Origin: an uncultured Bdellovibrionales bacterium
GTDB lineage: Bacteria > Patescibacteriota > Minisyncoccia > Moranbacterales > GWC2-37-73
Reading direction: 5' to 3'
Assembly (NCBI GenBank): GCA_964484505.1
Contig: CAZAFB010000002.1
Location: 9,679-73,678, forward strand
Length of the DNA: 64,000 bases
A program made the translations under genes and the position numbers. The number at the start of each line of letters is the position of its first letter. Position 1 is the stretch's first letter. The notes under the pieces are model-generated. The model saw only the letters and a program-made list of their open reading frames with translations, did no database searches and was not told where the DNA came from. This document shows positions 14,984 through 39,078 of the stretch, piece by piece.

Positions 14984-15086
14984 TTTGCTTTATAAAAGCC
15001 TTTATTTAATTAAATTCAATACTGATTCAATACCCATTCAATACCATATTGGGTACAATTTTCCATGCTCAAATTATACCAAAAAA

Positions 15087-15203: not shown

Positions 15204-18200
15204 CTAATTACCGAAGCGTAGCGCACTTCCTTCGTTCATGACATTCTTGATTTGTTGGTCAGTAAGGGCATAATTATACACACGCACATCATCAAATTGA
15301 CCTGACGCATTCTGGGTTCCTGATTGAGTGTAGCCAGCAACTGTGATAAATGTTCCCGCTGTACTGTCAGTAAAGGTCAAAGGACTTCCCGTTGGTATTC
15401 CATCCGCATAAGCCTGACAATAGGAAGTCCCTCCAGAAGTCCACCATTTCAATGCAACATGCTTCCATATATTTGCAGAAGGTGCACTTGTTGAAGTGGG
15501 AAAAACAGCCGGATTACCTTTGACGAAACCAATGGTGCTGCCAGCAATACTTATGTAAGTCCTAAAATTAGCATCTGCCCTAAAAATATAATTTCCCACT
15601 CCAGCTGCAGGATTCTTAACCCATAACGCAACAGTTCCGTTTAACGGCGATACTGTCATATTTCTTGTTGCATAATCATCCGTTCCGTCAAAATTTAAAC
15701 TGGAATTGAATTTTCCACTTGTGCCATTACCCCAAGCAGTCCCTGAATTAGTGCATGTCCCCGCAGAAGTCTGCGTCCCACCACTTCCTATGTTTATTGT
15801 TCCATTATTACCATTTCCCGAAGAATCATAGGCTGTACCGCCTTGGCATTCGTCAAACTTCCACCAACCCACCGGTGCGCCACGATTGTAGTCATATGCA
15901 ACTTGCGCAGGTGTGCGGCCGTAATTATAAACCATAACATGGTCTATGGAACCATTGAATTCATCACCCGTAGCATCAGTTACATAACTTTCATAACCGC
16001 CGCCTATTCTGTTTATGCCCCTGTTTGATGAAAATGTAACAGTTCCGGAATTATCCAATTTACCATCCAGATAAAGTGCTACTGCACCACTTGTGTTGTG
16101 GGTTGCAACAATATGATGCCAATTTCCATCATTAACATTGGCAGTGCCGTTAACACTTGCCCAAGCGGAATTATAATGCATATATTGTATTTTTCCTCCA
16201 GTCAAACCAAAACCAAGACCTACCCCATTGGTATTATCCCCAATGACATTTTGCGCCGCATTTCCAGTATACGTTTTTGTACTATCGGAACTTGTGGACT
16301 TAACCCAGGCTTCCAAAGTAATTCCAGAGGAACCAAGATCGAATCTTGAGATACTTGCATAGTCATCAGTTCCATCAAAATTCGCTGCCGATCCTTTTTT
16401 GCCAACCACCCAAGTCGGACCGTTTGTTAGTGTTGCATTTCTGCCTCCAGAGCCGGTATCACTAACTGTTGTCCCGTTTTTTTCGTCAAACTTCCATTCC
16501 CCAACCGGCGCACTGCAAGATGTTGAGTCACCGGGCACGCAATATTCGGCATTTGCACTGCCATCACCAACGCCCCCAGCGCTCATTCCAGCAAATGACA
16601 TTACCGCAGATTTTCCTTGATTATAATCGGCTTCAACTTCTTCTTCGGAAAGCGCGGCATTGTAAATTTTCAGTTCATCAATAATTCCATCGAACGCATA
16701 TGTTCCTATTGAACCGGAGTATAAGTTATTATCATGAGAATAAATCGAAGCAGTGAAAGTGGTTGCATTTTTAAGAACACCATCAATATATATTTTCATC
16801 AATCTGTTATCATAAACTCCGACAACATGGTGCCAATCGGTCCAATTTGAAATAGCGCCACCATTAAGTATTTTTCCACTAGTCCAACAATCTGTTGCTG
16901 CAATATTGAAAGAAAAGCTATTGTTTGAATTTGCAACCAACCCACTATGACATCCTGATCTACCTAAAATAACACGCTCACCTCCAGCTTGGACACCATC
17001 CGGCTTCACCCAAGCGGAAATAGTAAACCTTCCGCTTTCACTTCCGTTTTTTAAAATGGCATTATCGGAAGAATTATATACATAATCATCGCTTCCATCA
17101 AAATGAACGGCCTTATTAAATTTGCCGGAATTTTCCCACTGTGGTGTTGCCGTGCTTGTTGCCAAGGAAAGATTCATGGAACTTCCTTTGAAGCCCACGT
17201 TATTTGCAGTAGTTCCGCTCCCTTCATCAAATTTCCAATATGCCAAAGGCTCCACTGTGCCACCACCTGAATCCGCATCGCTTCCGCCACCGCTCATATC
17301 TTCAACAATCTGGTCTGTCGTGCGGGCATAATTGTAAATTTTCACATCGTCAATCATTCCAGCATAAGTATCCAAATCGCCAGAATTTCTTCCTAGACGC
17401 AAAGGATTAACATCATCCGTCTTAAGGACTCCAACATCGGATGCGCTGCCTTTTAGAACTCCATTAACATATATATAGGCTTTTGTACCATCATACACGC
17501 CAGCAAAATGATACCAATCGCCGGCAACGATGTCTCCCGCCGTACCTCCTGCATTAGCCCATGCTCCTCCGCTTTTAGAATAATAAAATCTAGGCAAACC
17601 ATTAGCTTCCACAACTATCCAATATGCGCCACTGCTGCCATCCCCCTTTCCTACAATATGCGGCCTGTCCGAAAGAGAATCAAACTTTGCCCAAGCTTCC
17701 ACAGTCACATAGGCAGGATTAAGCATGGCTGTATTATTAACATTTACGTAATCACTGGTTCCTGCAAATTTCACGGCGCTCCCATATTTTCCTTGCGTCC
17801 ATGTCGGCGAGTTTACCATATTTCCATTTATGCCATTGCCGCTGAAATCACTTGCGGAAGTTCCTGCATTTTCATCCAATTTATAATGTAAAACCGGGCC
17901 CGGTGCCCAATCATAGAGTTTGCGGACTTCTTCCGGCGAAAGCGCGCGATTGTATGTTCGTGCTTCATCTATTTTCCCGTTGAAATAATATGATTCGTTG
18001 GGGCTGTTGCCTATTTGAAAATTATCAGAAGTGCTTGTCCAATTAACACTAGTGTTTGTAGAATTTGCTTGCTGCTGTCCATTGACATATATTTTGGCAT
18101 TCTTGGTTATTCCATCATAAACAGCCACCACATGGAACCAATCGCTCGTATTTAAAAGCGAGGGAGTTGCCGCAGTAAGCTGATTGGAGTTTAAACGAAA

Positions 18201-20540
18201 TGAGATTGTGTCATTGCTTTTTGCCAAGCGATAACCGCCATAGCCCTTTCCGATTATGTGTTCAAAACCTGAAAGGTCATTTGTTTTTATCCACGCGCTC
18301 ATGCTGAAACTGCTGGTATTTATGAACTGATAGTGTGTAGGATTTCCCATGTTGACATAATCATCCGTTCCATCAAAAATTCCGCCATTGCCAAACTTGG
18401 CATAGGCAGTCGTAGCTCCTCCGGAAGAAGTTCCATTATTTCCAACACCGCTTGCATCCTTCACTTCTCCAGTCGTTCCGTTCCAACTTGCCTCATCCAT
18501 CTTCCAATGTCCAACCAGGCCATCATTAAGCCATTTGTCAGATTTGCCGCCAAATGCTTGCGCCGATCCTTCTGCTGCCCCGCTTCCTGCAAGTCCGGAA
18601 TTATAATCCATTTTGATTTGCTCGCCGCTTCGCGCGAATGGATAGACTTTTACCTCATCAATATATCCTTTAAAAGTATATGTGCCTGGCGCCATTCCCA
18701 TTCCTCCAATTGCGCTATTATAACTTGCTGCAGTTCCCACACCCAATGTAGAACTTTGAGAAGCAACTTCCCTTCCGTTAACATAAAGGCGCATCACATC
18801 ACCATCATAAGAAAAGGTTACTTGAGTCCATTGGTTAAAGGGAAAACTATTAGGATCAGTAACCGCTGCCGAGGTGGAATTCCAAATCGTGCCACTTAAT
18901 CTCCCTCCTGCTATGCGTAATTCGATTCCATTATATGCTCCGCAGCAATCTCTTGCATTGCTATATATATACCCATATGAATAGCTGGAATCTCCTTTAT
19001 AGTTAACCCATGCTGAAACGGAGAAATTAGAAGGATTTAATTTTAAAGAGTTTCCCAAATTCACATAATCACCAGAATTTTGTCCATCAAAATAAAGACA
19101 ATTTCCGTTAAGACACTCCGAGCTATTTTTCCATGCAGCGCCAGTTATTGTGCCGTTAAAACCATTGGAAGTAGAGTCATTAGTAGTGGTTCCATTTCCC
19201 TCATCAAATTTCCAATAAGCTACGGGCGCAGGCGCCTGTTCTTCATTTCCCACATTTGATGAATTGGCTCCATATGTGCTTCCCTTGACTTTCATCTCAT
19301 CAATTCCCCCGTTTCCCGCGAACGTCCCATATCTTATTTGTCTGCTGCCTCCTGCTGAAAAAGCTTCGGAAGTTGAGTAGTTTGTTTGAAAATAGGAATT
19401 TTGCGCACTGGTGTAACCATGATGCCAATCGGAATTATTTTTATTAATAATCGTTCCGCCATACCTTCCATCAGCAGTCCATCTTTGTCCAAACCAATTA
19501 TCACCAAGATCAGCTTGATACAAGGTTCCGGAATCCGCAGCTTGATCAACAAGCGTCTCACTACCATTTACCCATACGGAATTGCGGGTAGCGGTGTCGA
19601 AATTTAAGTAATAATAAAGATTTTCAGTTCCCGAAGCATTGTAATTCATATACACCATCTCTTCCACGAATCCGTTACGGAACATTTTAACAATAGTACC
19701 GAAAGAACTATAGCTTCCATAATTTGTATCTTCATATTTAACTTCCACAAACATGGGACCTTGTGAAAGCAGTGTCCTTGAAAATTGCCTGTCATCCCAC
19801 CAATTTCCCGGGTAACTGTCTGTATAACGATACGTTCCATTAACGCCAAGGTTGGTCCCGTCTTTACGCATATCCGAAATCTTACCATAAGAAGCATTGG
19901 TGCTATATCCATAACCATCTTTCATTTCCACGGTTTCGCCATCATTAACAACACTGGAAACATCACTCGCAAAGTTCTGCGCAAGCGCCTGCTGATTGCC
20001 ATAGTAAATGAAATATGCTGCTGAATTTTTTGCATCAACATTGCCTTCTATCCATATGCCCGTAGTTGAAGTGTTCAAAGTGCTTTTCTCCAATTGAAAA
20101 CGAACGCTTTTTCCATTTATATCAACGACCCGCAAATCGCTCCCGTCGCTTTTCATCTTTCCAGCAGAAATTAGAGACTGGGTATCCAAAATCACGCGAT
20201 AAGGAATGTTTGATGCGACATAAGTGCTATTATTGCTGACAGTAATGCTTTTCCGATATGCCCATGAATCATTCCACCAAGCGGCTTGCGACTTTGGTCC
20301 GCGCAAAAAGGCAAACCAAATTGAACCAGAAAGAATGGCGATGATTATGATCAGTGAGGTTGAAGCGGCCCAATATGGGTGTTTGCGATTGAAATCCTTT
20401 TTGACAAAACCCACCGGATTGCGTTTAATCAGAAAACGCAAAAAATCAGCAGCTCTGTCCAACCACCAATCAGAACCAGACATGTTTAAACATGTCTTTT
20501 TAACTTTTCTAAGCAAAGTCTTTGCCATATTATGTGACAA
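15204..20540 (-). CDS. 1778-aa membrane-anchored protein: N-terminal TM, DUF2341-like motif (WWNDSWAYRKSITV), then about 8 tandem LamG / concanavalin-A-like lectin (Laminin_G_3-type) domains
   Basis: Repeated units of the form PxAYWKFDEGSGTTxxD.SGNGxNGT...DYVxV...FTISAWVK...WHHVVGVYDG...KIYIDGxL. N-terminal hydrophobic segment SLIIIIAILSGSIWFAF. Confidence 0.8.
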   Translation of the reverse strand: MSHNMAKTLLRKVKKTCLNMSGSDWWLDRAADFLRFLIKRNPVGFVKKDFNRKHPYWAASTSLIIIIAILSGSIWFAFLRGPKSQAAWWNDSWAYRKSITVSNNSTYVASNIPYRVILDTQSLISAGKMKSDGSDLRVVDINGKSVRFQLEKSTLNTSTTGIWIEGNVDAKNSAAYFIYYGNQQALAQNFASDVSSVVNDGETVEMKDGYGYSTNASYGKISDMRKDGTNLGVNGTYRYTDSYPGNWWDDRQFSRTLLSQGPMFVEVKYEDTNYGSYSSFGTIVKMFRNGFVEEMVYMNYNASGTENLYYYLNFDTATRNSVWVNGSETLVDQAADSGTLYQADLGDNWFGQRWTADGRYGGTIINKNNSDWHHGYTSAQNSYFQTNYSTSEAFSAGGSRQIRYGTFAGNGGIDEMKVKGSTYGANSSNVGNEEQAPAPVAYWKFDEGNGTTTNDSTSNGFNGTITGAAWKNSSECLNGNCLYFDGQNSGDYVNLGNSLKLNPSNFSVSAWVNYKGDSSYSYGYIYSNARDCCGAYNGIELRIAGGRLSGTIWNSTSAAVTDPNSFPFNQWTQVTFSYDGDVMRLYVNGREVASQSSTLGVGTAASYNSAIGGMGMAPGTYTFKGYIDEVKVYPFARSGEQIKMDYNSGLAGSGAAEGSAQAFGGKSDKWLNDGLVGHWKMDEASWNGTTGEVKDASGVGNNGTSSGGATTAYAKFGNGGIFDGTDDYVNMGNPTHYQFINTSSFSMSAWIKTNDLSGFEHIIGKGYGGYRLAKSNDTISFRLNSNQLTAATPSLLNTSDWFHVVAVYDGITKNAKIYVNGQQQANSTNTSVNWTSTSDNFQIGNSPNESYYFNGKIDEARTYNRALSPEEVRKLYDWAPGPVLHYKLDENAGTSASDFSGNGINGNMVNSPTWTQGKYGSAVKFAGTSDYVNVNNTAMLNPAYVTVEAWAKFDSLSDRPHIVGKGDGSSGAYWIVVEANGLPRFYYSKSGGAWANAGGTAGDIVAGDWYHFAGVYDGTKAYIYVNGVLKGSASDVGVLKTDDVNPLRLGRNSGDLDTYAGMIDDVKIYNYARTTDQIVEDMSGGGSDADSGGGTVEPLAYWKFDEGSGTTANNVGFKGSSMNLSLATSTATPQWENSGKFNKAVHFDGSDDYVYNSSDNAILKNGSESGRFTISAWVKPDGVQAGGERVILGRSGCHSGLVANSNNSFSFNIAATDCWTSGKILNGGAISNWTDWHHVVGVYDNRLMKIYIDGVLKNATTFTASIYSHDNNLYSGSIGTYAFDGIIDELKIYNAALSEEEVEADYNQGKSAVMSFAGMSAGGVGDGSANAEYCVPGDSTSCSAPVGEWKFDEKNGTTVSDTGSGGRNATLTNGPTWVVGKKGSAANFDGTDDYASISRFDLGSSGITLEAWVKSTSSDSTKTYTGNAAQNVIGDNTNGVGLGFGLTGGKIQYMHYNSAWASVNGTANVNDGNWHHIVATHNTSGAVALYLDGKLDNSGTVTFSSNRGINRIGGGYESYVTDATGDEFNGSIDHVMVYNYGRTPAQVAYDYNRGAPVGWWKFDECQGGTAYDSSGNGNNGTINIGSGGTQTSAGTCTNSGTAWGNGTSGKFNSSLNFDGTDDYATRNMTVSPLNGTVALWVKNPAAGVGNYIFRADANFRTYISIAGSTIGFVKGNPAVFPTSTSAPSANIWKHVALKWWTSGGTSYCQAYADGIPTGSPLTFTDSTAGTFITVAGYTQSGTQNASGQFDDVRVYNYALTDQQIKNVMNEGSALRFGN

Positions 20541-20680: not shown

Positions 20681-21379
20681 TTACAGTTTCGCTGTTGCCG
20701 TATAGGTTATAATGTTGGAATAAGGTCCGGATTTCTGAGTTGGCGGAGCATCAACTTTGTATTCAATAGTCGTGTTATCACCACCACTGGAATATCCTGT
20801 TTTGGTATGAATAATCGCAGGCGTTAGAGGGAATGACGCATACTTATAATTTGGATTGCTGCCCCATTTCGAATCAACACCTGTTCCCGAAGCAATCGTG
20901 AAGCCAAGCCCCACACCAGACCACACACACGGCGCAATAATAAAACAAGAATAATCCGGGAGAGTAGTGACAGAATCAGAATGCAGCATTGAATGGTTTT
21001 CACTTGCATAAATATCATAACCACCCCAAGAATCAGTGGTGACTGTTATTATGGACTGACCAGTCCTTGCGATTCCAGGAGTAAGCGAACCCAGATTCAC
21101 CGTATTTGAATTAATCGACATGGAAAGTGAATAATTTATCATATACCAAAAACCCTGCTGAGCTGAAAAAGTTTCACTCTGCCCAATGCCAATAACCGGT
21201 TCGCCCAGAGTATCTGTCAACCTGAAAGATTCTGAGGTACCCAAATCACCCGCACTTCCAATAACATCGGAATTGATGCTATATGTCTCGCTGGACATGG
21301 CGGCATAACAATGGCTACTGATTAACAGCCCTGCCATCAGAAAGCCCGCGTATATTAATTTGTTTACTTTGTTTTTCAT
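20681..21379 (-). CDS. Small secreted beta-rich protein, paralog 3 of a three-member family (WxL-like surface protein candidate)
   Basis: Signal peptide (MKNKVNKLIYAGFLMAGLLISSHCYAA). Shares NLGSLTPG, GLGF(T/R)(I/V) and a C-terminal Y.VD.PPTQKSG.Y...ITY.ATAK motif with 24032..24715 and 24799..25449. Confidence 0.6.
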   Translation of the reverse strand: MKNKVNKLIYAGFLMAGLLISSHCYAAMSSETYSINSDVIGSAGDLGTSESFRLTDTLGEPVIGIGQSETFSAQQGFWYMINYSLSMSINSNTVNLGSLTPGIARTGQSIITVTTDSWGGYDIYASENHSMLHSDSVTTLPDYSCFIIAPCVWSGVGLGFTIASGTGVDSKWGSNPNYKYASFPLTPAIIHTKTGYSSGGDNTTIEYKVDAPPTQKSGPYSNIITYTATAKL

Positions 21380-21450
21380 CGAGGTCTAAAAAGAAATATG
21401 TTTCATGGAAAAAAGAAATTTGTTCAGGAAAGGTGAGGGTAACGTCAGAA

Positions 21451-22065
21451 TCACAACACTACCATTCTCTTCTTACGACGATTTAGATCATACACCGTCT
21501 TTTTATGCATCCATGCCAGAATAATTACTATTATTACTCCAGCTGCTATTGTTTTATTACCATCAATCCGAGAAAAGAAATGTGTCACGGCCCCGTCTTT
21601 CTCAATCAAATCAGAAACCACCATGCGCGAATACCTTCCAGAGGAGTCTGTCACAAATAAGCCATAACAATATTTCATTCCCGCAAGCGTAGTTTCATCC
21701 TGATATGAATCTCCGTTTCCGCGATATAATTCCGCGCCATCTCTGGGAAGCAAGGGACATCTATTTTCACTGCGCACAAGCACGACAGCTTCCGTTTCCT
21801 GCAAAGAAATCTTTTTCCAACTTATATACACCCCCCTAAGCAGCTGCTTCACTTGCAAATCTTCAACCCGTGAGGCTTCGTCAGCAGCAGCTTTTCCTGG
21901 AACTGTCGGAAGATCCTCCAAATTTATGGTTTGTGCCGAAACAGGAACAGTAATGGATACGATAATGAAAAAAAGTATGCCCGAAAAAACCGAAGCTGAA
22001 TCGGTAATTACTTTTTTTCCATAGGCATATTTTTCAGGACTGTTTTTTTCTGAAACACAATCCAT
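21451..22065 (-). CDS. Hypothetical membrane protein (N-terminal signal/TM, C-terminal TM)
   Basis: ORF with a hydrophobic N-terminus (SVFSGILFFIIVSITVPVSAQ) and a C-terminal TM (IAAGVIIVIILAWM). Its start overlaps the upstream gene by 32 nt. Confidence 0.45.
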   Translation of the reverse strand: MDCVSEKNSPEKYAYGKKVITDSASVFSGILFFIIVSITVPVSAQTINLEDLPTVPGKAAADEASRVEDLQVKQLLRGVYISWKKISLQETEAVVLVRSENRCPLLPRDGAELYRGNGDSYQDETTLAGMKYCYGLFVTDSSGRYSRMVVSDLIEKDGAVTHFFSRIDGNKTIAAGVIIVIILAWMHKKTVYDLNRRKKRMVVL

Positions 22066-23029
22066 ATCCTGTTTTTGTTATAACAATTAATACCGCAATA
22101 AAACCTAAAATGGTTACGAATGAATATTTTCCGAAAAGCATTTTTTTTGTTTGGTGAGCTCTGCCATCTCCGTCAGTGAAAGAAGCTTGAGCAACATACA
22201 CGCCAAAAAGTGATTTCACATTCCACTTAGCGGCGAAAGAATATTTTTTTCCAGGAAAAACAAAATGTTTTTCCAATTCAACCGTTTCAGTCTTTCTGGT
22301 GAAAAAATTGCGAACACTTATCTCTCCGTGCGGTATATAGTGAATCGTACCATTATTGGCAAATTCAGTATTGAAAACAACATCTTTATCCGCAACCAGT
22401 GGGGCATCAAATTTTGTAATCTTGCCGGCACCGGACTTCTCCCCAAGCACATTTATCAAAACATAAATTCCTACGCGCCCGCTAACTATCGTGGTTTGGA
22501 AATTGTCCACATTTATTTCCGGAAAAGCGCGCAACATTACTGCACCATAATGACTGCCCACAACGGCATCTTTGGGAACAACTATTGAAAATTCAATTTC
22601 TCTCGTTTCATTGGGGGAAAGCAACCAAGGATCAACCGGAATTTCCAGCCAGGATCGCATCCCATATGCTTCATTATCTCCATCGATAAAAGTTATCTCA
22701 TTATTGTCCGCGACCGAAAAATCTTGTTTTTCAGCTGACATTCTTTGTTCATTGGCGGAAATATTAACCACATTTACTTTGAATTTTTTTTCCTCTCCCT
22801 GAGCCAGATCGAAAGCGAAAGCGGATTGATCAATTGATATACCAACAATTTCGTCAGCAGAAGTCTCTTGAGCAAGGGCTTTTTTTGCTACGCAAAGCGC
22901 GCTGCATGTCATGATGACAAGAAGCGCGCAGAAAGGCACTAACCCTTTTTTCCCGAAAAAAATCATAGGCTTGAATTTCAATGACAGCAAAGCAGAAAAT
23001 ACAATTTCATCATACCACATTCCAGACAC
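22034..23029 (-). CDS. Cell-surface protein with signal peptide and C-terminal TM anchor (DUF916/DUF3324-like topology), paralog A
   Basis: N-terminal signal sequence (probable start at internal MIFFGKKGLVPFCALLVIMTCSALCVAKKALAQE), beta-rich body and C-terminal TM (FVTILGFIAVLIVITKTGYGLCF) followed by a basic tail. Topology is shared with 23039..23998. Confidence 0.5.
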   Translation of the reverse strand: MSGMWYDEIVFSALLSLKFKPMIFFGKKGLVPFCALLVIMTCSALCVAKKALAQETSADEIVGISIDQSAFAFDLAQGEEKKFKVNVVNISANEQRMSAEKQDFSVADNNEITFIDGDNEAYGMRSWLEIPVDPWLLSPNETREIEFSIVVPKDAVVGSHYGAVMLRAFPEINVDNFQTTIVSGRVGIYVLINVLGEKSGAGKITKFDAPLVADKDVVFNTEFANNGTIHYIPHGEISVRNFFTRKTETVELEKHFVFPGKKYSFAAKWNVKSLFGVYVAQASFTDGDGRAHQTKKMLFGKYSFVTILGFIAVLIVITKTGYGLCFRKKQS

Positions 23030-23038
23030 TCATGGTTT

Positions 23039-23998
23039 CTATTCATTCTCCTTTCTCTTGATTTCAAATTTGGTCGTGAATATCTTCCATCCAAGCCATA
23101 GGATTACGATAGCCAAAATGATAAGTACGGTTGTTTTCCAAGGAATAACCCAGAAAGTGGCTATTTTTTCCATCCTGATTTCTTGATCATCAGAAGCTAA
23201 TTGCATCTTCGCTTTATAATAACCGTAAGACCAGGGTGAAAAATTCCAAGAATTTTCATAATTACGATATCTTTCCGGATAAAGTATTCTTTCCGGGATC
23301 TCTTCTTCATTAACCTTCCTACCAAAAAGATTGGTTATTTCCAGTTTTCCGGTTGCCTTATAGTGAAGATTTCCACTATTATAAACTTCCGCTAACAACT
23401 CTGCCGGTTTATCCCAAAATATTTTCTTTTTTGCCTCAAACTTCCTGATTTCACCTGAGCGGCGAATTGGCTCATCACCCTTAACCGCCATTACCAACAA
23501 AACGCCCACGCGCTGATGGATGATAACTTTCGAAGTACGTCCGTCATCTTGCTCACCGGTGTTATTGGTCGTCTTGAAAAATATCGCTCCGTAATATCCA
23601 CCTGTAGGCATTTTTTCCGGCACATTCACTTTGAAAGAAATGTCTTTCCCTTCTCCGGGAGCAAGAGTTAGTTTTCGCGGTACATCAATCCAATTTATTA
23701 CATCCCAGGCTTTAAGTGGATGACTGTCCGTAGGCACGAAAAATCGAGCTTCAAAAGAATCATCAGAAACATAGAAGTCCTCTATCTCTACATCGACATC
23801 ATAGGGAATATCGGAATAATTTTTCAAGTTTATAACACCCGTCCTTCCCTCTCCATCATTAAAATCCCAGGCGAAACGAACCGGCGAAACCTGCACGCCA
23901 GATCCTATTCCATCATCCTGAGCCAAAACCGTGCTTGCATAAACCGATCCCAAAAAAATCAAGCCGGCCAAAACGGTAACTGAAATACTCTTTTTCAT
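23039..23998 (-). CDS. Cell-surface protein with signal peptide and C-terminal TM anchor (DUF916/DUF3324-like topology), paralog B
   Basis: MKKSISVTVLAGLIFLGSVYASTVLAQ signal peptide. C-terminal TM TTVLIILAIVILWLGWKIF followed by a KRKENE tail. Length (319 aa) and architecture match the adjacent 331-aa protein. Confidence 0.5.
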   Translation of the reverse strand: MKKSISVTVLAGLIFLGSVYASTVLAQDDGIGSGVQVSPVRFAWDFNDGEGRTGVINLKNYSDIPYDVDVEIEDFYVSDDSFEARFFVPTDSHPLKAWDVINWIDVPRKLTLAPGEGKDISFKVNVPEKMPTGGYYGAIFFKTTNNTGEQDDGRTSKVIIHQRVGVLLVMAVKGDEPIRRSGEIRKFEAKKKIFWDKPAELLAEVYNSGNLHYKATGKLEITNLFGRKVNEEEIPERILYPERYRNYENSWNFSPWSYGYYKAKMQLASDDQEIRMEKIATFWVIPWKTTVLIILAIVILWLGWKIFTTKFEIKRKENE

Positions 23999-24031
23999 AA
24001 TAGCTGTAAATATAATCTTAGGACTGTCTTT

Positions 24032-24715
24032 TTATGGTTTCGTCGTAGCCTGATAAGTTATTGTACCGTTATATGAACCGGATCTTTGCGTTCCGGGAAC
24101 ATCCACTCTGTATGCAACAACAACTGCAGTTGAGGTTGCACTATATGAGTCATGATCCATTATTGTGGCATATGTGCTAGGAAAACCCGCAAAAAGAGGA
24201 GAAGCATCTGTTCCCCACCAAGTTTGATTATGAGTAGCCGTTGTTCCTGAAACGGCAACACGAAATCCCAAACCTGTACCAGTCCAGGCAGCAGCATTTG
24301 GCGTGCCAGGTGTCCAAGCTGTTTTATCTGTTATGTTTGTAGCAGCATCAGTAGTGTGATCCATTGTCGTATCCCCATCGTCACGCCTTACCGCGAGATC
24401 ATATCCGCTTTCCGCATTGGTTGTTGTAGTGCAAGTGGAAGTGCCGTTTACGGGTGTTCCCGGAGTGAGTGTTCCCAAATTGACATCGGCGCCGCAATTT
24501 AATGATATGTTTTGGGCAACCGTAAGCGAAAGCGTAACTTGATCAGTTGTCGTTATGGCCCCGTTAATACAATTTAAGGGAAAAAGAATTGCAGCAGAAA
24601 AAATAACCAGGCCATATAACGCCACGAGAAGCTTAAATGTTTTATTTTTAATTTTTCTGTTTTTTTTCTCGAAAATAAACATGTTTATACAACGCATATG
24701 ATCAATCAGCGCCAA
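24032..24715 (-). CDS. Small secreted beta-rich protein, paralog 1 (WxL-like surface protein candidate); true start probably internal (MFIFEKK... or later)
   Basis: Near-identical N-terminal mature region to 24799..25449 (AITTTDQVTLSLTVAQNI(S/T)LNCGADVNLGTLTPGTPV). C-terminus is VDVPGTQRSGSYNGTITYQATTKP. Confidence 0.6.
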   Translation of the reverse strand: MALIDHMRCINMFIFEKKNRKIKNKTFKLLVALYGLVIFSAAILFPLNCINGAITTTDQVTLSLTVAQNISLNCGADVNLGTLTPGTPVNGTSTCTTTTNAESGYDLAVRRDDGDTTMDHTTDAATNITDKTAWTPGTPNAAAWTGTGLGFRVAVSGTTATHNQTWWGTDASPLFAGFPSTYATIMDHDSYSATSTAVVVAYRVDVPGTQRSGSYNGTITYQATTKP

Positions 24716-24798
24716 ATAGAAATATCCACGTTTATATCTAAAAGGAGGCAGGGTTTAAATTAATCCAGCGTATTTTAAAAATAATTATTTATCGCATA

Positions 24799-25449
24799 TT
24801 AAGGCTTTGTCGTAGCTTGATAAGTAATGGTACCATCATAAGCTCCCGATCTTTGAGTTCCTGGAACATCTACTTCATAGCAAACAACCGTGTTTGTCGA
24901 TGAAGAATTGTAACTGTCATAATCCATAATCAAAGTATAAGCAGTGGGAAAACCTGCATACTTTTGAGCTGCCTCAGTACATGCAGCACCAGTTCCCCAC
25001 CAAGTTGTATTTTTTGAACCTGTGGAGCTTAGCACTCCGAATCCAAGTCCTGTACCGGAATATGCCGCAGCGTTACCAGCGCCAGCGCTTGCTGTCGGAT
25101 CCCAAACAGTCTTGTCGGTAATATTATCGGAAGCACTTGTGGTTTTATCCATCGTTGTGTCGGCATCATCACGTCTTACCGCAAGATCATATCCAGCTTC
25201 CGAATTAGTTGTAACAGTACATGTTGAGCTTCCCGTAACTGGCGTACCAGGGGTAAGAGTTCCCAAGTTTACGTCAGCTCCGCAATTCAATGTAATGTTC
25301 TGAGCTACCGTTAATGATAACGTTACCTGATCGGTTGTAGTAATCGCCCCCTTGCTGCCTCGATCAAAAATCAATATATCCGCAGCAAAAATGATGGTGA
25401 TAACAGCCACGACAGCTATCAATCTCAACTGTTTCTTTCTGTTTTTCAT
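24799..25449 (-). CDS. Small secreted beta-rich protein, paralog 2 (tandem duplicate of 24032..24715)
   Basis: Signal/TM (LRLIAVVAVITIIFAADILIF). Body is largely identical to the neighbouring paralog. C-terminus is VDVPGTQRSGAYDGTITYQATTKP. Confidence 0.6.
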   Translation of the reverse strand: MKNRKKQLRLIAVVAVITIIFAADILIFDRGSKGAITTTDQVTLSLTVAQNITLNCGADVNLGTLTPGTPVTGSSTCTVTTNSEAGYDLAVRRDDADTTMDKTTSASDNITDKTVWDPTASAGAGNAAAYSGTGLGFGVLSSTGSKNTTWWGTGAACTEAAQKYAGFPTAYTLIMDYDSYNSSSTNTVVCYEVDVPGTQRSGAYDGTITYQATTKP

Positions 25450-25574: not shown

Positions 25575-25886
25575 TTACTTTTTCTTTTTTTCGCCATCTA
25601 TCTTTCTCACTAAATCACGCATAGTATACATTCCAGCAAGAAAAACTACGCTAAAAATAACTTTTGATCCGGTGAAATATAAGGCAAATCTGCCTTCCGG
25701 CAAACCACCAAATATAAAGATGGCTTCGGCAATTGCGAGAAAAACTATAGCCATCAAAAACAACTTATAGGAAATATCCAATTCCTGTTCCACTCGCCAA
25801 ATCACCCCGATTGCATAAATAATCGAAAGAAGCAGGCAAGCGAAGATAACTGATTCCATTATTATTAATATTTGTTCTGTGCTCAT
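25575..25886 (-). CDS. Small 3-TM membrane protein
   Basis: 103-aa ORF with three hydrophobic helices. Its ATG overlaps the stop of the upstream gene (atga at 25883-25886), suggesting translational coupling. Confidence 0.45.
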   Translation of the reverse strand: MSTEQILIIMESVIFACLLLSIIYAIGVIWRVEQELDISYKLFLMAIVFLAIAEAIFIFGGLPEGRFALYFTGSKVIFSVVFLAGMYTMRDLVRKIDGEKKKK

Positions 25887-27325
25887 TTCAACACCTCCTT
25901 TCTTTTGGTTACAAATCCCTCTTTTTCCAAATCCATATCGAAAACATTCCTAAGTGCGTGCCTGTAAAGCCAGTACTCTATCAACAAAAGAATCAAGAAA
26001 ATCAAAAGTATCAGCAATAAAATAATAAATATCCAGCCAAGATTGGCAACAAGAGTTTCATTGGTAAGCAATATGCCGCCGCCAACACCAATGAAAGGAT
26101 AGTCTCGAATTAAAAAGAAATCTTCTGCAACGAAATTATTATTTTTCATTTGTGCAAAAAGACTTATTTTATATCTTCCCGGACCCATAAATACCGGAAG
26201 TTTGATATTTTTTTTCACATGCTCATCTGAAGTGATTTTTATTTCTTCTTTCAACTCATGCAGAAGTTTTGATTTGGAATCGAATATCCGATAAGTAAGC
26301 CAGGTTACATTTTCCGACCCTGACTTCCCTATATTTTTCAGAAAAACATCCAAAAAAAGTTCCTGTCCCCTAAAAACCAATTTTTCTTTATTAAGAACAG
26401 CTACCGAAACGCTTCCTTGCTTTCGCTCCATCGACATGGCGGGAGCAAGTTTTCCTTGCGGACGAACCAACTGCGTATAATTTTTATTTCCATGTTCATG
26501 ATCATCCTCATCAGATGTTGTTTCTTTAACTATTTCAAAAGACAATGAGGTTGTGCTCATGCGCATCTGATTATCATGATCGGTCGCGGTGACATAAATA
26601 ACATACGAACCAAGCGGCAAGTCTGCTGGAATGTTCCAATACCAATAACCATTAACATTGGCGAAAGTATCCGCCGCTATTATCGGTCCGGGATATAAGG
26701 ATATAGCTATTACAGCATTTGCCAAATTAGTCGTTCCTGTTATTAAAGGATTTTTGTTTTGAGTTTTAACAAGACCGACACTTTGCGTCAGATCAATCCC
26801 ATCGAAAGAAATAATTGCACATTGAGGCTGGGGGGGTGGCGGTGGCTCGCATATTCCCGTGGAAACAGCGGCCTCGTTAGATTGCGCATTACCCAACGGA
26901 CCATAAGCAACAACATAATAAGTATAGGAAGCATTCTGTTCTATGTTCGTGTCTGTATAGTAATTCGTAGAAATACCCGAAATTAAAATTTCCCCGTTCC
27001 TATATAAATCATAGCTGTTTGCATCCGGAGAAGCCGTCCAATTCAGCCAAATAGCAAGATTTCCCTTGTCACATTGTTCATAGCCGCTAAGCACAGGTAC
27101 TTCTGGCGGTCCCGGTATCCATAAACTCAGAGAAACGGCATCTGCAGCAAAGGCATATTTGTTTTTCATATCTCCCAGAAGCAATTCGGGACCCAACAAT
27201 AAACCGCTTGATATATATGCCACAAAAACCAAGCACGTTATTGCTGAATGGATTTTTACCGCGATATGCAGTTTTGTCTTTTTTGGCTTTGTCTTTTTCG
27301 GTTTTTTCTTTTTATTCATCTTCAT
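25883..27325 (-). CDS. 480-aa surface protein: N-terminal TM, fibronectin-III-like domain, PPPPPQPQ linker, Ig-like domain(s), C-terminal TM
   Basis: Lys-rich N-terminus then a TM (AITCLVFVAYISSGLLLG). FN3-like segment (PEVPVLSGYEQCDKGNLAIWLNWTASPDANSYDLYRNGE...YTYYVVAYGPLGN). C-terminal TM (IFIILLLILLIFLILLLIEYW). Confidence 0.6.
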   Translation of the reverse strand: MKMNKKKKPKKTKPKKTKLHIAVKIHSAITCLVFVAYISSGLLLGPELLLGDMKNKYAFAADAVSLSLWIPGPPEVPVLSGYEQCDKGNLAIWLNWTASPDANSYDLYRNGEILISGISTNYYTDTNIEQNASYTYYVVAYGPLGNAQSNEAAVSTGICEPPPPPQPQCAIISFDGIDLTQSVGLVKTQNKNPLITGTTNLANAVIAISLYPGPIIAADTFANVNGYWYWNIPADLPLGSYVIYVTATDHDNQMRMSTTSLSFEIVKETTSDEDDHEHGNKNYTQLVRPQGKLAPAMSMERKQGSVSVAVLNKEKLVFRGQELFLDVFLKNIGKSGSENVTWLTYRIFDSKSKLLHELKEEIKITSDEHVKKNIKLPVFMGPGRYKISLFAQMKNNNFVAEDFFLIRDYPFIGVGGGILLTNETLVANLGWIFIILLLILLIFLILLLIEYWLYRHALRNVFDMDLEKEGFVTKRKEVLK

Positions 27326-27396: not shown

Positions 27397-30300
27397 TTAT
27401 TTTATCTTTGCCCAACCGAATATCTCTTGAAAATTGTTTATGATCAATTGGACGATATTTTCTTTTTTCTTTGGAGTAAGCAAAGCAAATTCACCCGAAG
27501 TACTTTCGTTTCCGGATTGATCTTTCGATTTCACCTTGAAATAATAGACTGTTCCGGGCTTAAAAATAGTAACCACAACGATATGCGTCTGGGAGGAATT
27601 CCCTTCTGTCATTATTTCTTTTTCTTCCCCATTGCGCCTTTCCTTATATGAAAGAACTGTTGTCGCTGGTTCATTTGTCGTCCAAGAAATTATGGACTGC
27701 ACTTTGTCATTCTGAGTAAGCGCATTCTCTGTTTTTATTTTATCTATTTTCGGCGCCGTATCATCTTTTCCTGTAGAAAAAGTTACTACTTGGGATTTTG
27801 CCTCATTGCTCTGTTCATCGCGAGCGATTACGGACAAATTATAAGCTACTCCCGATTCCAAATTTTCCAATTCCACTTCGTGTGAAATGGCCAGATCAGG
27901 CTTACCTTGCGTTCCTGAATTGGCAGGATTGCCTTGATCAATATAGGAAACAAGGGCATCTGTGGGAACATTGGTGGAAAACTTAACCACAGCACCATTC
28001 TCCGTAACTGACTCGACAGCTATATTGGAAATTTGCGGAGGAGCTTTGGATTCGAAAGTATAATCAGATGAAGAATACAAAGTTCCTTTCTGATCTTTAC
28101 CTTTTACTCGAAAATGATACGTTTGCGCCGGTTGCAAACCGGAAACTACCAGCTCATGATTTTTAACATAAGAGCCACTTTCTTTTATTTCACCATATGA
28201 ATTAGAAAGTCCATATTCGATTATTGAAGTAGTGGCTTGGTTGGTGCTCCAGGTTATTGTAGCTTCGTTGATGGATGTGGGAACAGCCTTGATTGAAGAT
28301 AGTGATGAAGGAGATTTGGTCGCAAAAGTTGATTGCGCCGATTCGGTTATGTTGCCGGCAACATCATATGAAACAACCGAATAATAGTATTTAGTATAAG
28401 GTACTAGTCCGGAAATCACTACCGAGTGAGAAGTGGAAAAATTATCCACACTGGTATTTACCAAATTATCACCTTCCATGCGCATATTCTTAGAATCAAC
28501 GCCATATTTTACCAGGCTATTCGCCTCTTCGTCAGTGGTCCAAGAAATGGTTACGGAGTCACCCGTAGAAGCAGACGTCTTGATACTACTTATTTTGGGA
28601 GCAATATCATCATCTCCAGTGCCGCTTCCTCCGCCTGATCCTGCCTGCTGCTGCGAAGTAACAAAAGAATACTCATCGGAAGAAATCGTGGTACTGAGAT
28701 TATCCTGACAAGTTACTTTGTAATAATAAGTCGTTTCAAAAATGAGTCCTGCAAGATGAATTGAATGCGTCTTGTCATAAGTAGCTTCAGAAACTGGAAC
28801 CTCGGTGTAATTTCCTGATTGAGTTCCAAATTCGATTGTACACTCCGCTTCCTGATCAGTATCAAAAGAAACAACAGCTTTGGTATCCGTTATTACAGGA
28901 GTGGAGACATTATCGATAGAACCAAGCGGGTCATGTTGTTGTTCGGTTGGTTTTTCTGTGGTGAAATTTCCCGGTGACGATGTGCCTGCATTGCCATATG
29001 CATCAGTCGCAGTAATTGTAAATAAATAACTATCATCAGCATTAAGACCGGAAAGCAACACGAAATGATCCGTGGCGTAGTTTGTCATATTCACATTGTT
29101 TGTAAGAGGCATTTCTGTTCCATATAAAACCAAGCTCCTGGTTGCTTTGTCCGTATGCCATGAAATTAGCGCGCTATCAGAAGCAAGTTCCTCCACTGTT
29201 ATAGCGGAAATTACCGGATCGGAATCATCATGCCCGGTAGCGAAAGAATCATTGGTTGAATACCCTGTATTGCCACTACTATCTTGTGAAAATACTCTGA
29301 ATTGATATGTGTTATCAGCACCAAGATCATGAGGTAACTCAATCGAATGAGAAGTGGAAAGGTCACTGCTTCCATACACTCGACCATAAGCAACCGTTGG
29401 TCCGAATTCCACAAATGAAGAAGCGGCTTCATCGCTGTCCCAAGTTACCAACACTGTTTGCTGATCCGCTCCGGAAACAGCAGCTGCAACATTGGAAATC
29501 ACAGGTGCAACACTATCATCACCTCCCGACAACGTGCTGAAGTTGTTTTCTGCAGAGACGGCTTCATTTCCCATTGCATCTCGCGAATGTACCCGATAAT
29601 AATAAGTGGCGCTTGAGGAAAGTCCTGACAGCGTAACTGAATGCGAGGTAACCATGTCGTTTGTACCCAACAGCAATCCGGCAGGAAAACCTTGAGTTAA
29701 TGAATACTCCACAAAAGAATTGGAAGATTCATCGGTATCCCAAGTTATGGTAGCAGCGTCTTCGGTCGTTATGGCATTCAAGGAAGAAATGGCCGGAGGC
29801 GTAGAATCCAAGGGGTCCGTGATGAAAGGAGCCTGAGAATCATCAATTCCGACATTACCATATTGATCAGCTGATTTTACTTGGTAGTAATAGGTTTGTC
29901 CAGGCGTAAGTCCGGTAAGTGTAACGCTGTGTTCCGTACCCATAGTCGTAACTCCTATCTCGGAAGTAAAATCCCCCGAAACAGTTGAAAAACCGACAGT
30001 AGCATTAGCAAGAACATCGGTTTGCCAATTTAGTTGAGCCGTGGTTGTTGTCACGTTCGAAATCTGTATATTCGATATCACAGGAGGAATAGAACTAACT
30101 TCACCATTACCATCTGGTATATCACTGGTAATGTTGGAAAAGGCCGAAATACTGCCGTTCACATCTTCTGCTGTAATTTTGTAATAATATCTGGTTTCAG
30201 CAACAAGATCAGCATCCAGATAATAATTAGTCAATCTGTCTTCATTGGTTGCCACAGGAGTTGAGCCATAATTGATTCCATCACTGCTTCGCCAAATATT

Positions 30301-37781: not shown

Positions 37782-38050
37782 GATTGGTTGTATTATTCGT
37801 TTTTGTTATTTATCCTTCTTTTGTCATTTTAACGCAAAACAAAGCTTCTGGCAAGCAAAAAACAGCATCTGAAATGCTGCATTATTGCGGGGCATTGTGA
37901 ACGACATTAGGATTTTCTTTGAGACAGAGAACAACTTGAACTTTGCTCCCCTCAACAAAGACTAATTTTAAAAACATTCGGAAATACAAAACCCCTCGAT
38001 GGGGGGAGGGGGTCTAAAATATGGGACATAGCCAGAAATGCTTCTTAAAA

Positions 38051-38581: not shown

Positions 38582-39078
38582 AATTTTTTTAAAGCTATGA
38601 GCGGTGGAAATTCAAATAAGCACTAGCCAAAAATATCAATTGCGACTTTTGAGCCGTTTTTTTTATTGGATTTTCTTTGGGGATACCACTTGGTCAAAGA
38701 ACCATTTATGAGAATACAAACTATAACCCTATACTTGCGTGTGCTTGCATAAGGAAACAGATTTATTCTGCGAAACAAGGTTAGCCTTTAACTTGGTCGA
38801 TGGAATATTGGCACTGTGCGTTATACTCCGAGGTTGAGTTTTCCCCTTCCTATGGCAGGGTTATTCTTTTCAACGTCTTTTTGGGTCAGTGCGGTGAGGT
38901 TCGGCTTTCCAGCCGTCCTCGTTTAGTCGAGGGACTTTTTACAAGAAAGAACTAATTGCCCTCTAAATGGCTTTTGGTTCAGTTATACCCGCATCCTTTC
39001 GGATACTTGTTTCGGTTTCTTTGAAGTCGTTTTTATTATAGCGTGCTTTTATCTAAAGGTAAAAAATATTAGTTGAAA

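What the first reader, a model, noticed from the sequence alone, without database searches (positions are those of the whole stretch)
20681..25449. WxL-locus-like surface-protein module: three secreted paralogs plus two signal-peptide/C-terminal-TM proteins
Three small secreted proteins share N-terminal (L.L.V..N..LNCGADVNLG(T/S)LTPG), central (W.G.GLGF) and extreme C-terminal (Y.VD.P.TQ(R/K)SG.Y.G.ITY.AT.K) motifs. Two proteins of about 320-330 aa with a signal peptide and a C-terminal TM anchor lie beside them. The layout is secreted beta-rich proteins ending in a short aromatic C-terminal motif, plus a DUF916/DUF3324-topology partner. It mirrors the WxL loci of Enterococcus, Lactobacillus and Listeria, which bind peptidoglycan non-covalently and mediate adhesion. 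Such a locus has not been expected outside Firmicutes. Homology is inferred from motifs and topology only.
Basis: inference. Interest (0 to 1): 0.7.

Follow-up and report, generated by a model that had tools for sequence, protein, structure and literature searches.

The report
Usher-less pilus locus with WxLIP-type chaperones
This is a conserved surface-fibre gene cluster of an ultrasmall (CPR/Patescibacteria) bacterium whose two membrane-anchored helper proteins are true relatives of the Firmicute WxL-interacting proteins, while its three small secreted paralogs look like chaperone-usher/Pam-type pilus subunits rather than WxL domains.

Summary

- **Helper proteins:** the two about 320-aa proteins are genuine homologues of WxLIP (DUF916-DUF3324-TM). 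Pfam PF06030 hits 43/43 family members. hhalign against Firmicute WxLIPs gives 98.8% probability, E=4e-17, across both domains. The best PDB fold matches are the E. faecium WxLIP structures 9i1y and 9i25.
- **Small paralogs:** they are not WxL-domain proteins. PF13731 hits 0/43, there is no W-x-L motif, and hhalign probability is about 12% (C-terminal strand only). Their confident model resembles donor-strand pilins (CsuA/B, CfaB, PapG/FimH pilin domains, TasA). NCBIfam gives sub-threshold hits to the 2026 CPR "Pam" pilus models.
- **Other features:** there is no LPXTG motif, sortase or usher. The module recurs in 11 CPR loci, mostly Moraniibacteriota.

Best reading: a chaperone-assisted, usher-less donor-strand fibre. 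It is a single-domain variant of the Pam pilus, and it connects Pam-type pili to Firmicute WxL clusters through the shared WxLIP-type chaperone.

The parts
24799..25449 (-). P6, major subunit candidate (216 aa). It has a signal peptide, a conserved N-terminal extension and a pilin-type incomplete Ig-like domain with four conserved Cys.
24032..24715 (-). P5, second subunit (227-aa ORF; likely start at 24697, giving 221 aa). It is 69% identical to P6.
   Evidence: NCBIfam CPR_Pam_pilin_C E=1.2e-5, matching residues 75-225 to profile positions 3-146 of 148.
25300..25338 (-). Putative donor strand of P6, residues 38-50 (TTDQVTLSLTVAQ). The equivalent segment of P5 is at 24512-24550.
   Evidence: T39 81%, V42 90%, L44 95% and V48 95% conserved, giving an alternating hydrophobic pattern. 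Mean conservation is 0.65, against 0.71 for the domain and 0.29 for the signal peptide. The segment is left as coil, outside the fold, in the monomer model. It is retained as the linker before the C-terminal domain in most long-form relatives. The donor-strand role is inferred by analogy with PamA/B and chaperone-usher N-terminal extensions.
23039..23998 (-). P4, a membrane-anchored WxLIP/PapD-like chaperone candidate (319 aa). It has a signal peptide, two Ig-like domains and a C-terminal TM helix (279-311).
   Evidence: Pfam WxLIP_PGBD 20.8 bits, E=4e-4. Family 43/43, best 1e-9. PDB profile hit to EfmWxLIP1 9i25_C and 9i1y_A, E=2.3e-5. AF2 pLDDT 90.2. Foldseek top hits are 9i1y and 9i25_C, then CfaA, RbmA, CsuC and Caf1M. 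hhalign against 9 Firmicute WxLIPs: 98.8%, E=4.4e-17, 256 columns.
23480..23602 (-). Long beta-hairpin of P4 (residues 133-173) with a low-confidence charged tip (146-161). It is the candidate strand donated to the subunit groove.
   Evidence: Secondary structure and pLDDT. The segment aligns with the EfmWxLIP1 segment '...[22 protein letters not shown]'. PMC10599100 reports that a long hairpin of WxLIP, disordered when alone, inserts as a strand into WxL. The equivalence of the two hairpins is inferred.
22034..23029 (-). P3, second WxLIP-like chaperone candidate (331-aa ORF; likely start at 23020). It is a paralog of P4 with a C-terminal TM at 297-326.
   Evidence: Pfam WxLIP_PGBD 25.7 bits, E=1.3e-5, against a gathering threshold of 27.3. 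26% identity to P4, E=5e-26. P3-type and P4-type copies are both kept in 6 of 11 related loci.
21451..22065 (-). P2 (204 aa): signal/TM, a beta-rich domain of about 110 aa with two conserved Cys, and a C-terminal TM. Possible membrane tether or terminator, as PamR is proposed to be.
   Evidence: ORF. TM segments. Homologues sit at the same position in L007 and L008. No Pfam or NCBIfam family. The role is inferred and weakly supported.
20681..21379 (-). P1 (232 aa), a PamT-like subunit. It has the same C-terminal pilin domain but lacks the N-terminal donor strand, carrying a distinct N-terminal region of about 65 aa instead. Candidate tip or initiator subunit.
   Evidence: NCBIfam CPR_pilus_PamT E=2.5e-13, 50 bits, against a 240-bit cut-off (residues 13-128 to profile 11-128 of 241). 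Also CPR_Pam_pilin_C E=8.9e-6. 38% identity to P6. A P1-type gene is present in 9 of 11 related loci. 90 homologues, all CPR where named.
25575..27325 (-). P7 (25575-25886, 103 aa, hydrophobic segments consistent with 2-3 TM helices) and P8 (25883-27325, 480 aa, N-terminal and C-terminal TM, Big_13 Ig-like domain). These are upstream co-oriented genes and possible lineage-specific accessories.
   Evidence: They are conserved only in the closest relative, L006, so they are not part of the core module.

Best explanation
The locus encodes a usher-less, chaperone-assisted donor-strand surface fibre (pilus) of a monoderm CPR/Patescibacteria bacterium, close to Moraniibacteriota.

Proposed working:
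1. P6 and P5 are Sec-exported subunits made of a single incomplete Ig-like pilin domain.
2. That domain is preceded by a conserved N-terminal strand (T-D-Q-V-T-L-S-L-T-V).
3. P4 and P3 are membrane-anchored two-Ig-domain proteins homologous to WxLIP and fold-similar to PapD, CfaA and CsuC. They are proposed to cap each subunit's open groove with a hairpin strand at the outer face of the membrane.
4. The N-terminal strand of the next subunit then displaces the chaperone strand (donor-strand exchange), and the fibre grows.
5. P1 is PamT-like and lacks the donor strand. It would sit at the distal tip.
6. P2 (one beta domain plus a TM helix) may tether the base.
7. In other genomes the same C-terminal domain and linker strand carry beta-propeller, LRR or FN3 passengers. 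These would be adhesive subunits.

Shown: the genes, the paralogy, the conserved synteny, WxLIP homology of P3/P4, the pilin-type fold of P6, and remote similarity to the Pam models.

Inferred: strand donation, polymerisation, subunit order and the tether role.
For: - **Candidate donor strand.** The N-terminal segment is as conserved as the domain but is excluded from the monomer fold. It persists as the linker in most of the 84 long-form relatives, whose pilin domain always ends 0-6 residues from the C terminus. This is the NTD-linker-CTD plan of PamA/B.
- **Pam similarity.** NCBIfam Pam pilin C-domain hits 33/43 family members, best 1.3e-7. PamT hits P1 at 2.5e-13. P1 is 232 aa; the PamT model has 241 positions and PamT is 25.6 kDa.
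- **Chaperones.** WxLIP homology is shown. Chaperone-usher chaperones CfaA, CsuC, Caf1M and EcpB score E=1e-10 to 1e-7. They have the same SP + two-Ig + C-terminal TM architecture as PamC/D. WxLIP is predicted to complete the WxL sandwich with a hairpin strand.
- **Synteny.** The module recurs in 11 CPR loci. In L010-L012 it is arranged as subunit-chaperone pairs.
- **Rival assembly routes absent.** There is no usher, sortase or LPXTG.
Against: - No direct evidence of polymerisation exists. No multimer prediction could be run.
- All Pam-model scores are below NCBI's curated cut-offs (20-26 bits against 55; 50 against 240), so this is not a Pam equivalog.
- The window's subunits lack the N-terminal domain that stabilises PamA/B filaments.
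- Two tandem Ig domains hit many unrelated PDB entries, such as RbmA, hydin and transglutaminase. The chaperone-usher fold similarity alone is therefore weak.
- The closest sequence relatives of P3/P4 (WxLIP) are described as anchors of non-polymeric WxL proteins, not as pilus chaperones.
- P2 has no conserved N-terminal donor strand.
- The ATP-synthase neighbourhood reported for pam operons is absent here.
Confidence: 0.6

Rival explanations
1. WxL-like static display. The small proteins do not polymerise. Each stays bound, by strand complementation, to a membrane-anchored WxLIP-like protein (P3/P4). Together they form a surface scaffold or adhesin complex, as proposed for Firmicute WxL-WxLIP pairs.
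For: - P3/P4 are sequence homologues of WxLIP across both domains.
- The solved 9i25 structure is a stable WxLIP-long WxL complex.
- The gene layout and the short/long domain architecture match WxL clusters.
- There is a weak but family-wide C-terminal strand similarity to WxL. hhalign gives P=0.0026 against 0.36 for the reversed control. A WxL HMM scores a median of 3.3 bits against -0.2 for reversed sequences.
Against: - The conserved free N-terminal strand of P5/P6, and its absence in P1, has no role in a 1:1 complex.
- The fold and the Pam-model similarity point to polymerising pilins.
- Two near-identical subunit genes suggest a bulk structural subunit.
Confidence: 0.25
2. A bona fide WxL locus. 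The three paralogs are divergent WxL domains that bind peptidoglycan non-covalently.
For: - WxLIP homology of the partners.
- A collinear weak motif resemblance: '..FG', 'G[WY].L.V', and a C-terminal 'Y.[GT].[IL]T[WY].[LA]...P'.
Against: - Pfam WxL hits 0/43 at E<=1.
- There is no W-x-L motif.
- hhalign probability is 11.6-18%, covering only 26 columns.
- There is no PDB sequence hit at E<=10.
- There is no LPXTG partner or sortase.
Confidence: 0.05
3. Unrelated secreted beta-sandwich proteins, such as S-layer or cell-envelope components, that merely neighbour Ig-fold membrane proteins. There would be no strand-complementation system.
For: - All family assignments for the small proteins are sub-threshold.
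- Ig-like folds are promiscuous in fold searches.
Against: - Subunit and chaperone genes are strictly co-conserved in 11 loci across divergent CPR lineages.
- The top structural hits for P6 are overwhelmingly donor-strand fibre subunits, not generic Ig domains.
- The WxLIP homology is significant.
Confidence: 0.05

Closest known systems
Pam pili of Candidatus Mycosynbacter amalyticus (CPR, Saccharimonadia); bioRxiv 10.64898/2026.03.03.709456; NCBIfam NF058579 and NF058581
   Same: - Both are from CPR hosts.
[quoted passage not shown]
- A conserved strand lies immediately before that domain.
- There is a single-domain, PamT-like subunit without a donor strand.
- Two paralogous chaperone-like proteins have a signal peptide, two Ig domains and a C-terminal TM helix.
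- There is no usher, sortase or ATPase.
- A small TM-anchored beta-domain protein sits in the operon.
- Sequence hits to the Pam pilin C-domain and PamT models are significant but sub-threshold.
   Different: - The window's major subunits are single-domain (about 180 aa mature). They lack the nine-strand N-terminal domain of PamA (55 kDa) and PamB (39 kDa), so the donor strand is N-terminal as in classical chaperone-usher pilins.
- Scores are far below the curated cut-offs.
- The host lineage is Moraniibacteriota/Paceibacterota, not the Saccharimonadia/Microgenomatia reported.
- There is no ATP-synthase neighbourhood.
- P2 has one beta domain, whereas PamR has two FnIII domains.
Firmicute WxL clusters (WxL PF13731 + WxLIP = DUF916/PF06030 + DUF3324 + TM; csc clusters of L. 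plantarum, E. faecium loci A-C; PDB 9i1y and 9i25)
   Same: - P3/P4 are homologous to WxLIP over both domains and share its C-terminal TM.
- Several small secreted paralogs lie next to the WxLIP gene.
- Both families have short forms (domain only) and long forms (passengers plus the domain at the extreme C terminus).
- WxLIP is predicted to insert a hairpin strand into its partner.
   Different: - The small proteins are not WxL domains by any test run here.
- There is no LPXTG protein or sortase.
- There are two WxLIP-like genes rather than one.
- The host is CPR, whereas over 91% of WxL sequences are in Firmicutes.
- Peptidoglycan binding is unknown.
Classical and archaic chaperone-usher pili (Pap/Fim, CFA/I, Csu, Caf1)
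   Same: - The subunit has an N-terminal extension with alternating hydrophobic residues.
- The C-terminal strand carries a G-x-Y...T-Y pattern.
- The chaperone has a two-Ig-domain fold.
   Different: - There is no outer-membrane usher and no outer membrane.
- The chaperones are membrane-anchored.
- There are no Pfam PapD_N/PapD_C or Fimbrial hits. Only weak DUF4402 hits occur, in 15/43 members.
TasA/TLP, Ena and archaeal donor-strand fibres (TasA 8aur, TLP-2 9ikk, CanX 9h8b, bundling pili 7ueg)
   Different: Those systems use no dedicated two-domain chaperone, and no sequence similarity was detected.

Membership tests
WxL cluster (Firmicutes) | Small and large proteins carry a WxL domain (PF13731) with two Trp-x-Leu motifs | tested here: not met
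   [not shown]
WxL cluster (Firmicutes) | WxLIP partner: DUF916 (PF06030) N-domain | tested here: met
   P3 scores 25.7 bits and P4 20.8 bits, just under the gathering threshold of 27.3. 43/43 family members match, best 1e-9. Many homologues carry precomputed PF06030. The PDB EfmWxLIP1 hit has E=2.3e-5.
WxL cluster (Firmicutes) | WxLIP partner: DUF3324 second domain plus a C-terminal TM helix | tested here: met
   There is no direct Pfam DUF3324 hit. However, hhalign aligns columns 15-284 to WxLIP 7-279 of 346, which covers both domains (98.8%, E=4.4e-17). The AF2 model has two beta-sandwich domains plus helix 287-310.
WxL cluster (Firmicutes) | Associated small LPXTG protein and sortase anchoring | tested here: not met
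   No LPXTG-like motif occurs in P1-P8. No sortase domain was found among the 31 window ORFs scanned with Pfam. ORFs of 60-150 aa outside the module were not scanned.
WxL cluster (Firmicutes) | Non-covalent peptidoglycan binding | not testable with these tools
   Requires biochemistry.
Pam pilus (CPR) | [quoted passage not shown] | tested here: inconclusive
   The E-values are significant (P1 8.9e-6, P5 1.2e-5, P6 3.6e-4; 33/43 members, best 1.3e-7). All scores are below the curated cut-off. The match is full-length to the model, positions 3-146 of 148.
Pam pilus (CPR) | PamT tip subunit (NF058579 equivalog, cut-off 240 bits) | tested here: not met
   P1 scores 50 bits, E=2.5e-13, over the N-terminal half of the model only. 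The L014 homologue gives the same result. P1 is related to PamT but is not an equivalog.
Pam pilus (CPR) | Two-domain major pilins (nine-strand NTD, linker donor strand, CTD) | tested here: not met
   P5 and P6 are a single domain plus an N-terminal strand. The NTD-linker-CTD plan does occur in long-form relatives elsewhere.
Pam pilus (CPR) | Two membrane-anchored PapD/FimC-like chaperones in the operon | tested here: met
   This is met at the architecture and fold level only. Sequence comparison with PamC/D was not possible.
Pam pilus (CPR) | Forms helical filaments by donor-strand exchange | not testable with these tools
This needs AF3 or cryo-EM.
Chaperone-usher pili | Outer-membrane usher (PF00577) and periplasmic PapD-type chaperone (PF00345/PF02753) | tested here: not met
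   No such Pfam hits occur in the module or in the window ORFs scanned. There is only fold-level similarity to CfaA, CsuC and Caf1M.
Sortase-assembled Gram-positive pili | LPXTG sorting signal, pilin motif and a class C sortase | tested here: not met
Type IV pilins | Class III signal peptide / N_methyl motif | tested here: not met
   No N_methyl hit occurs in P1, P5 or P6. True type IV pilins are elsewhere in the window, at 49105-50843.

The most novel reading that the evidence does not exclude
Firmicute WxL clusters and CPR Pam-type pili are two branches of one ancient monoderm 'chaperone without usher' donor-strand system.

The WxLIP-type protein is the shared, membrane-anchored chaperone. 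The WxL domain would be a strongly diverged pilin domain. The supporting pattern is a collinear weak motif match ending in Y-x-[GT]-x-[IL]-T-[YW]-x-[AL]-x-x-x-P at the C terminus.

This would predict that WxL proteins are assembled, and perhaps polymerised, by strand exchange. The WxL proteins fetched here carry a short N-terminal beta-like segment followed by a Pro-rich linker, which could serve that role. It would also predict that PamC/D are WxLIP homologues.

The present locus has single-domain subunits and clear WxLIP-type partners. It would be the intermediate that makes the link visible.
Probability: 0.3. Interest if true: 0.8.

Novelty: new variant of a known kind. Interest (0 to 1): 0.6.

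Why it matters
CPR bacteria are mostly obligate episymbionts, and how they reach and hold their hosts is a central open question. Pam pili were described only in 2026, and only for Saccharimonadia and Microgenomatia.

This locus shows a related but simpler fibre system with single-domain subunits. It is widespread in Moraniibacteriota and Paceibacterota, and it falls below the curated thresholds used to annotate Pam proteins, so current annotation misses it.

Its helper proteins are demonstrable homologues of the Firmicute WxL-interacting proteins. That connection is absent from the Pam preprint and was not found in the WxL papers searched or in the searchable literature. It gives both fields a testable hypothesis. 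WxLIP-type proteins may be membrane-anchored donor-strand chaperones. WxL display in pathogens and commensals (Enterococcus, Listeria, Lactobacillus) and CPR pilus assembly may then share a mechanism.

The long-form relatives carry propeller, LRR and FN3 passengers on the same C-terminal domain. This suggests a modular way of mounting adhesins on the fibre.

Tried and rejected
- **Pfam WxL model** on the three paralogs and on 43 family members: no hit.
- **PDB sequence searches** with the pilin profile and with P1: nothing at E<=10. Neither WxL (9i25) nor any deposited Pam chain is detectable by sequence.
- **AFDB50 fold search:** the library was unavailable, so AlphaFold models of WxL proteins could not be compared.
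- **Bridging to bona fide Pam through the two Saccharibacteria loci (L015, L016):** their proteins also stay below the NCBIfam cut-offs.
- **Enlarging the WxL profile** from 8 to 16 sequences, adding Bacillus, Melissococcus and E. raffinosus: the hhalign signal did not improve (P 0.0013-0.0022 became 0.0026).
- **First WxL-HMM decoy test:** it failed on an option clash and was rerun successfully.
- **Pam sequences from the preprint supplement:** none are held.
Taxonomy therefore rests on named homologues.
- **Giant-protein N-terminal domain** against Pfam, PHROGs and PDB: no hits.
- **Promoter and terminator scan** of the module: promoter-like sites match the shuffled expectation (19 against 19.2 +/- 3.8). 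Terminator-like sites are above it (11 against 5.9 +/- 2.4), but none gave a usable operon boundary.
- **Rejected kinds:** type IV pilin, sortase pilus and classical chaperone-usher system were each considered and rejected on their defining features (see the membership tests).

Full report
**1. What is in the sequence**

Between 20681 and 27325 the minus strand carries eight co-oriented ORFs:
- P8 (480 aa)
- P7 (103 aa)
- P6 (216 aa)
- P5 (227 aa)
- P4 (319 aa)
- P3 (331 aa)
- P2 (204 aa)
- P1 (232 aa)

Two giant surface proteins flank them. One is a 2517-aa RCC1/FN3 protein at 27397-34950. The other is a 1778-aa LamG-repeat protein at 15204-20540.

The paralogies it claimed are real:
- P5 vs P6: 69% identity.
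- P1 vs P6: 38% over 159 aa, E=6e-23.
- P3 vs P4: 26% over 283 aa, E=5e-26.

A profile of the P5/P6 family finds only these three ORFs in the six-frame translation of the window. P3 and P4 have an N-terminal hydrophobic segment and a C-terminal TM segment. It also did not note that P1 lacks the N-terminal strand shared by P5 and P6.

**2. Host and conservation**

Named homologues come from Candidatus Paceibacterota, Moranbacteria/Moraniibacteriota and the Parcubacteria group. Reference-genome loci are titled Moraniibacteriota, Patescibacteria and Saccharibacteria. Three are titled Bdellovibrionales but show the same synteny, so they are probably mislabelled MAGs.

The window also has a complete type IV pilus cluster, plus gyrB, ligA and gatA.

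In all 11 related CPR loci, an A1-type subunit gene sits beside at least one P4/P3-type gene. Nine loci also have a P1-type gene, and nine have at least two chaperone-type genes. In L010-L012 the order is subunit, chaperone, P1-type, chaperone.

P2 recurs in L007 and L008. P7, P8 and the RCC1 giant recur only in the closest relative, L006.

**3. The about 320-aa proteins are WxLIP homologues**

- Pfam WxLIP_PGBD (DUF916) scores 25.7 bits for P3 and 20.8 bits for P4, against a gathering threshold of 27.3.
- All 43 aligned family members match it, best 1e-9. Many database homologues carry PF06030 precomputed. JGI labels one of them 'PapD'.
- The family profile hits the E. faecium WxLIP chains 9i25_C and 9i1y_A at E=2.3e-5.
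- The AF2 model is confident (pLDDT 90.2). It shows two beta-sandwich domains, a long hairpin at 133-173 with a low-confidence tip, and a C-terminal helix.
- Its best PDB matches are 9i1y and 9i25 ('WxLIP bound to long WxL'). The chaperone-usher chaperones CfaA, CsuC, Caf1M and EcpB follow, along with RbmA.

I fetched nine real WxLIP proteins from Enterococcus, Melissococcus and Bacillus plasmids. hhalign of the CPR family against them gives 98.8% probability and E=4.4e-17 over 256 columns, spanning both domains.

**4. The three small paralogs are not WxL domains**

- Pfam WxL hits none of the three and none of 43 relatives at E<=1.
- They contain no W-x-L motif.
- The family profile finds nothing in PDB sequences at E<=10.
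- hhalign against 8 and then 16 genuine WxL proteins gives only 11.6-18% probability (P 0.0013-0.0026). It aligns just the last 26 columns. The reversed control gives P 0.36-0.66.
- A WxL-domain HMM does score the CPR domains slightly but consistently above decoys. The median is 3.3 bits, against -0.2 for reversed, -0.1 for shuffled and -1.1 for the chaperone family. The match lies in the C-terminal strand.

The sequences in that last test are related to each other. It therefore counts as one family-level observation, not as 255 independent ones.

**5. What the small paralogs are**

The P6 model is confident (pLDDT 88.7).

NCBIfam gives sub-threshold but significant hits to two models built for the newly described CPR Pam pilus:
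- CPR_Pam_pilin_C matches P1, P5 and P6. It hits 33/43 relatives, best 1.3e-7, over the full model length.
- CPR_pilus_PamT matches P1 at E=2.5e-13 over the N-terminal half.

The Pam preprint (10.64898/2026.03.03.709456) reports the following:
- Cryo-EM filaments of PamA and PamB built by donor-strand exchange.
- A single-domain tip subunit, PamT.
- Two PapD/FimC-like chaperones with C-terminal TM helices, PamC and PamD.
- A TM-anchored FnIII tether, PamR.
- No usher.

The present locus has the same parts list. It differs in three ways:
- Its major subunits lack the Pam N-terminal domain.
- All scores are below NCBI's cut-offs.
- It lies in a lineage outside the Saccharimonadia and Microgenomatia emphasised there.

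**6. The candidate donor strand**

After the signal peptide, P5, P6 and their relatives begin with A-T-x-T-D-Q-V-T-L-S-V-T-V. Conservation is T39 81%, V42 90%, L44 95% and V48 95%.

This segment is nearly as conserved as the folded domain (0.65 against 0.71; the signal peptide is 0.29). Even so, AF2 leaves it as coil outside the monomer fold. P1-type proteins lack it.

An exhaustive profile search found 862 relatives at E<=1e-3. Among the best 150 and the earlier hits there are 84 long proteins (296-3773 aa). Their pilin domain always ends 0-6 residues from the C terminus. Most keep the same strand as a linker between the passenger and the domain. Passengers include DUF5122 beta-propellers, DUF285/BspA-type repeats, FN3 and glycine-rich domains.

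This is the NTD-linker strand-CTD plan of PamA/B. It also matches the 'short versus long, domain always C-terminal' rule described for WxL proteins.

**7. Mechanism proposed (inferred)**

- Subunits are exported by Sec.
- A hairpin strand of the membrane-anchored P4 or P3 caps each subunit's groove.
- Exchange against the N-terminal strand of the next subunit builds a fibre.
- P1 sits at the tip.
- P2 is possibly at the base.

For WxLIP, AlphaFold predicts exactly such a hairpin-strand insertion into WxL (PMC10599100). The P4 hairpin aligns with the corresponding charged WxLIP segment.

No LPXTG motif, sortase, usher or N_methyl motif is present.

**8. Alternatives**

A static WxL-like complex without polymerisation remains possible (about 0.25). 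A true WxL locus and a coincidental neighbourhood are each unlikely (about 0.05).

**9. Novelty**

The kind of system, the Pam pilus, is known as of 2026. This is a distinct variant of it.

The Pam preprint contains no mention of WxL, DUF916 or DUF3324. The two WxL papers examined contain no mention of chaperones or CPR taxa, and the WxLIP paper does not mention donor strands. No paper in the library combines 'WxL domain' with 'donor strand'. The search pairing DUF916 with CPR terms listed none holding DUF916 among its top 12 hits. The bridge between the two systems through the WxLIP-type protein therefore appears to be new.

Whether the WxL domain itself is a diverged pilin domain is left open, at about 0.3.

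**10. Limits**

- No multimer prediction could be run.
- The AFDB library was unavailable.
- No dedicated signal-peptide predictor was used.
- The taxonomy of the window rests on named homologues.

Noticed in passing
window 49105-60309 (- strand): A complete type IV pilus cluster: PilM, PilN-like, PilO-like, PilB, a PilT-like ATPase, PilC, prepilin peptidase and three N_methyl pilins. The organism therefore encodes two unrelated fibre systems within 35 kb.
   Followed up: partly
window 14546-14989 and 1629-14330 (- strand); L008 10787-12039, L009 11316-14650, L012 10693-11367: The module's synteny extends further. In three related loci it is followed by homologues of a 148-aa HTH_17 + TM protein and of the N-terminal ~190 aa of the 4233-aa giant protein. 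That N-terminal domain has no Pfam, PHROG or PDB sequence match. It may correspond to the 'tail fibre-like protein' that the Pam preprint reports next to pam operons.
   Followed up: partly
L008, L009, L012 (genome contigs): Three MAG contigs are titled 'uncultured Bdellovibrionales/Pseudobdellovibrionaceae'. They carry subunits 57-65% identical to P6 and the same gene order as the Moraniibacteriota loci. They are probably taxonomically mislabelled CPR bins. If not, the system would also exist in predatory diderm bacteria.
   Followed up: no
window 38000-43966: A low-GC stretch (0.335-0.341, against about 0.41 elsewhere) contains ORFs without Pfam hits. It ends at a large serine recombinase (42103-43728, +) that abuts tRNA-Asp, tRNA-Met and tRNA-Met (43687-43966). 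This looks like an integrated mobile element at a tRNA site.
   Followed up: no
L001-L005, L017, L019-L021 (Firmicute WxL loci): Most of the WxL proteins translated here show a short conserved beta-like segment right after the signal peptide, for example 'EAKVTI', 'GNIEF' and 'ADITF'. In the longer ones a Pro-rich linker then follows before the WxL domain. This is reminiscent of an N-terminal donor strand on a tether. I did not find it discussed in the two WxL papers read.
   Followed up: no
window 15204-20540 and 27397-34950 (- strand): Two giant N-terminally anchored surface proteins flank the module: a 1778-aa protein with six LamG_3 repeats and a 2517-aa RCC1/FN3 protein. Neither carries the pilin domain. 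The RCC1 giant keeps its position in L006.
   Followed up: partly
L007 13065-13736: In one relative, a Y1 (IS200-like) transposase is inserted between the second chaperone gene and the P2 homologue. This suggests the module tolerates disruption there.
   Followed up: no
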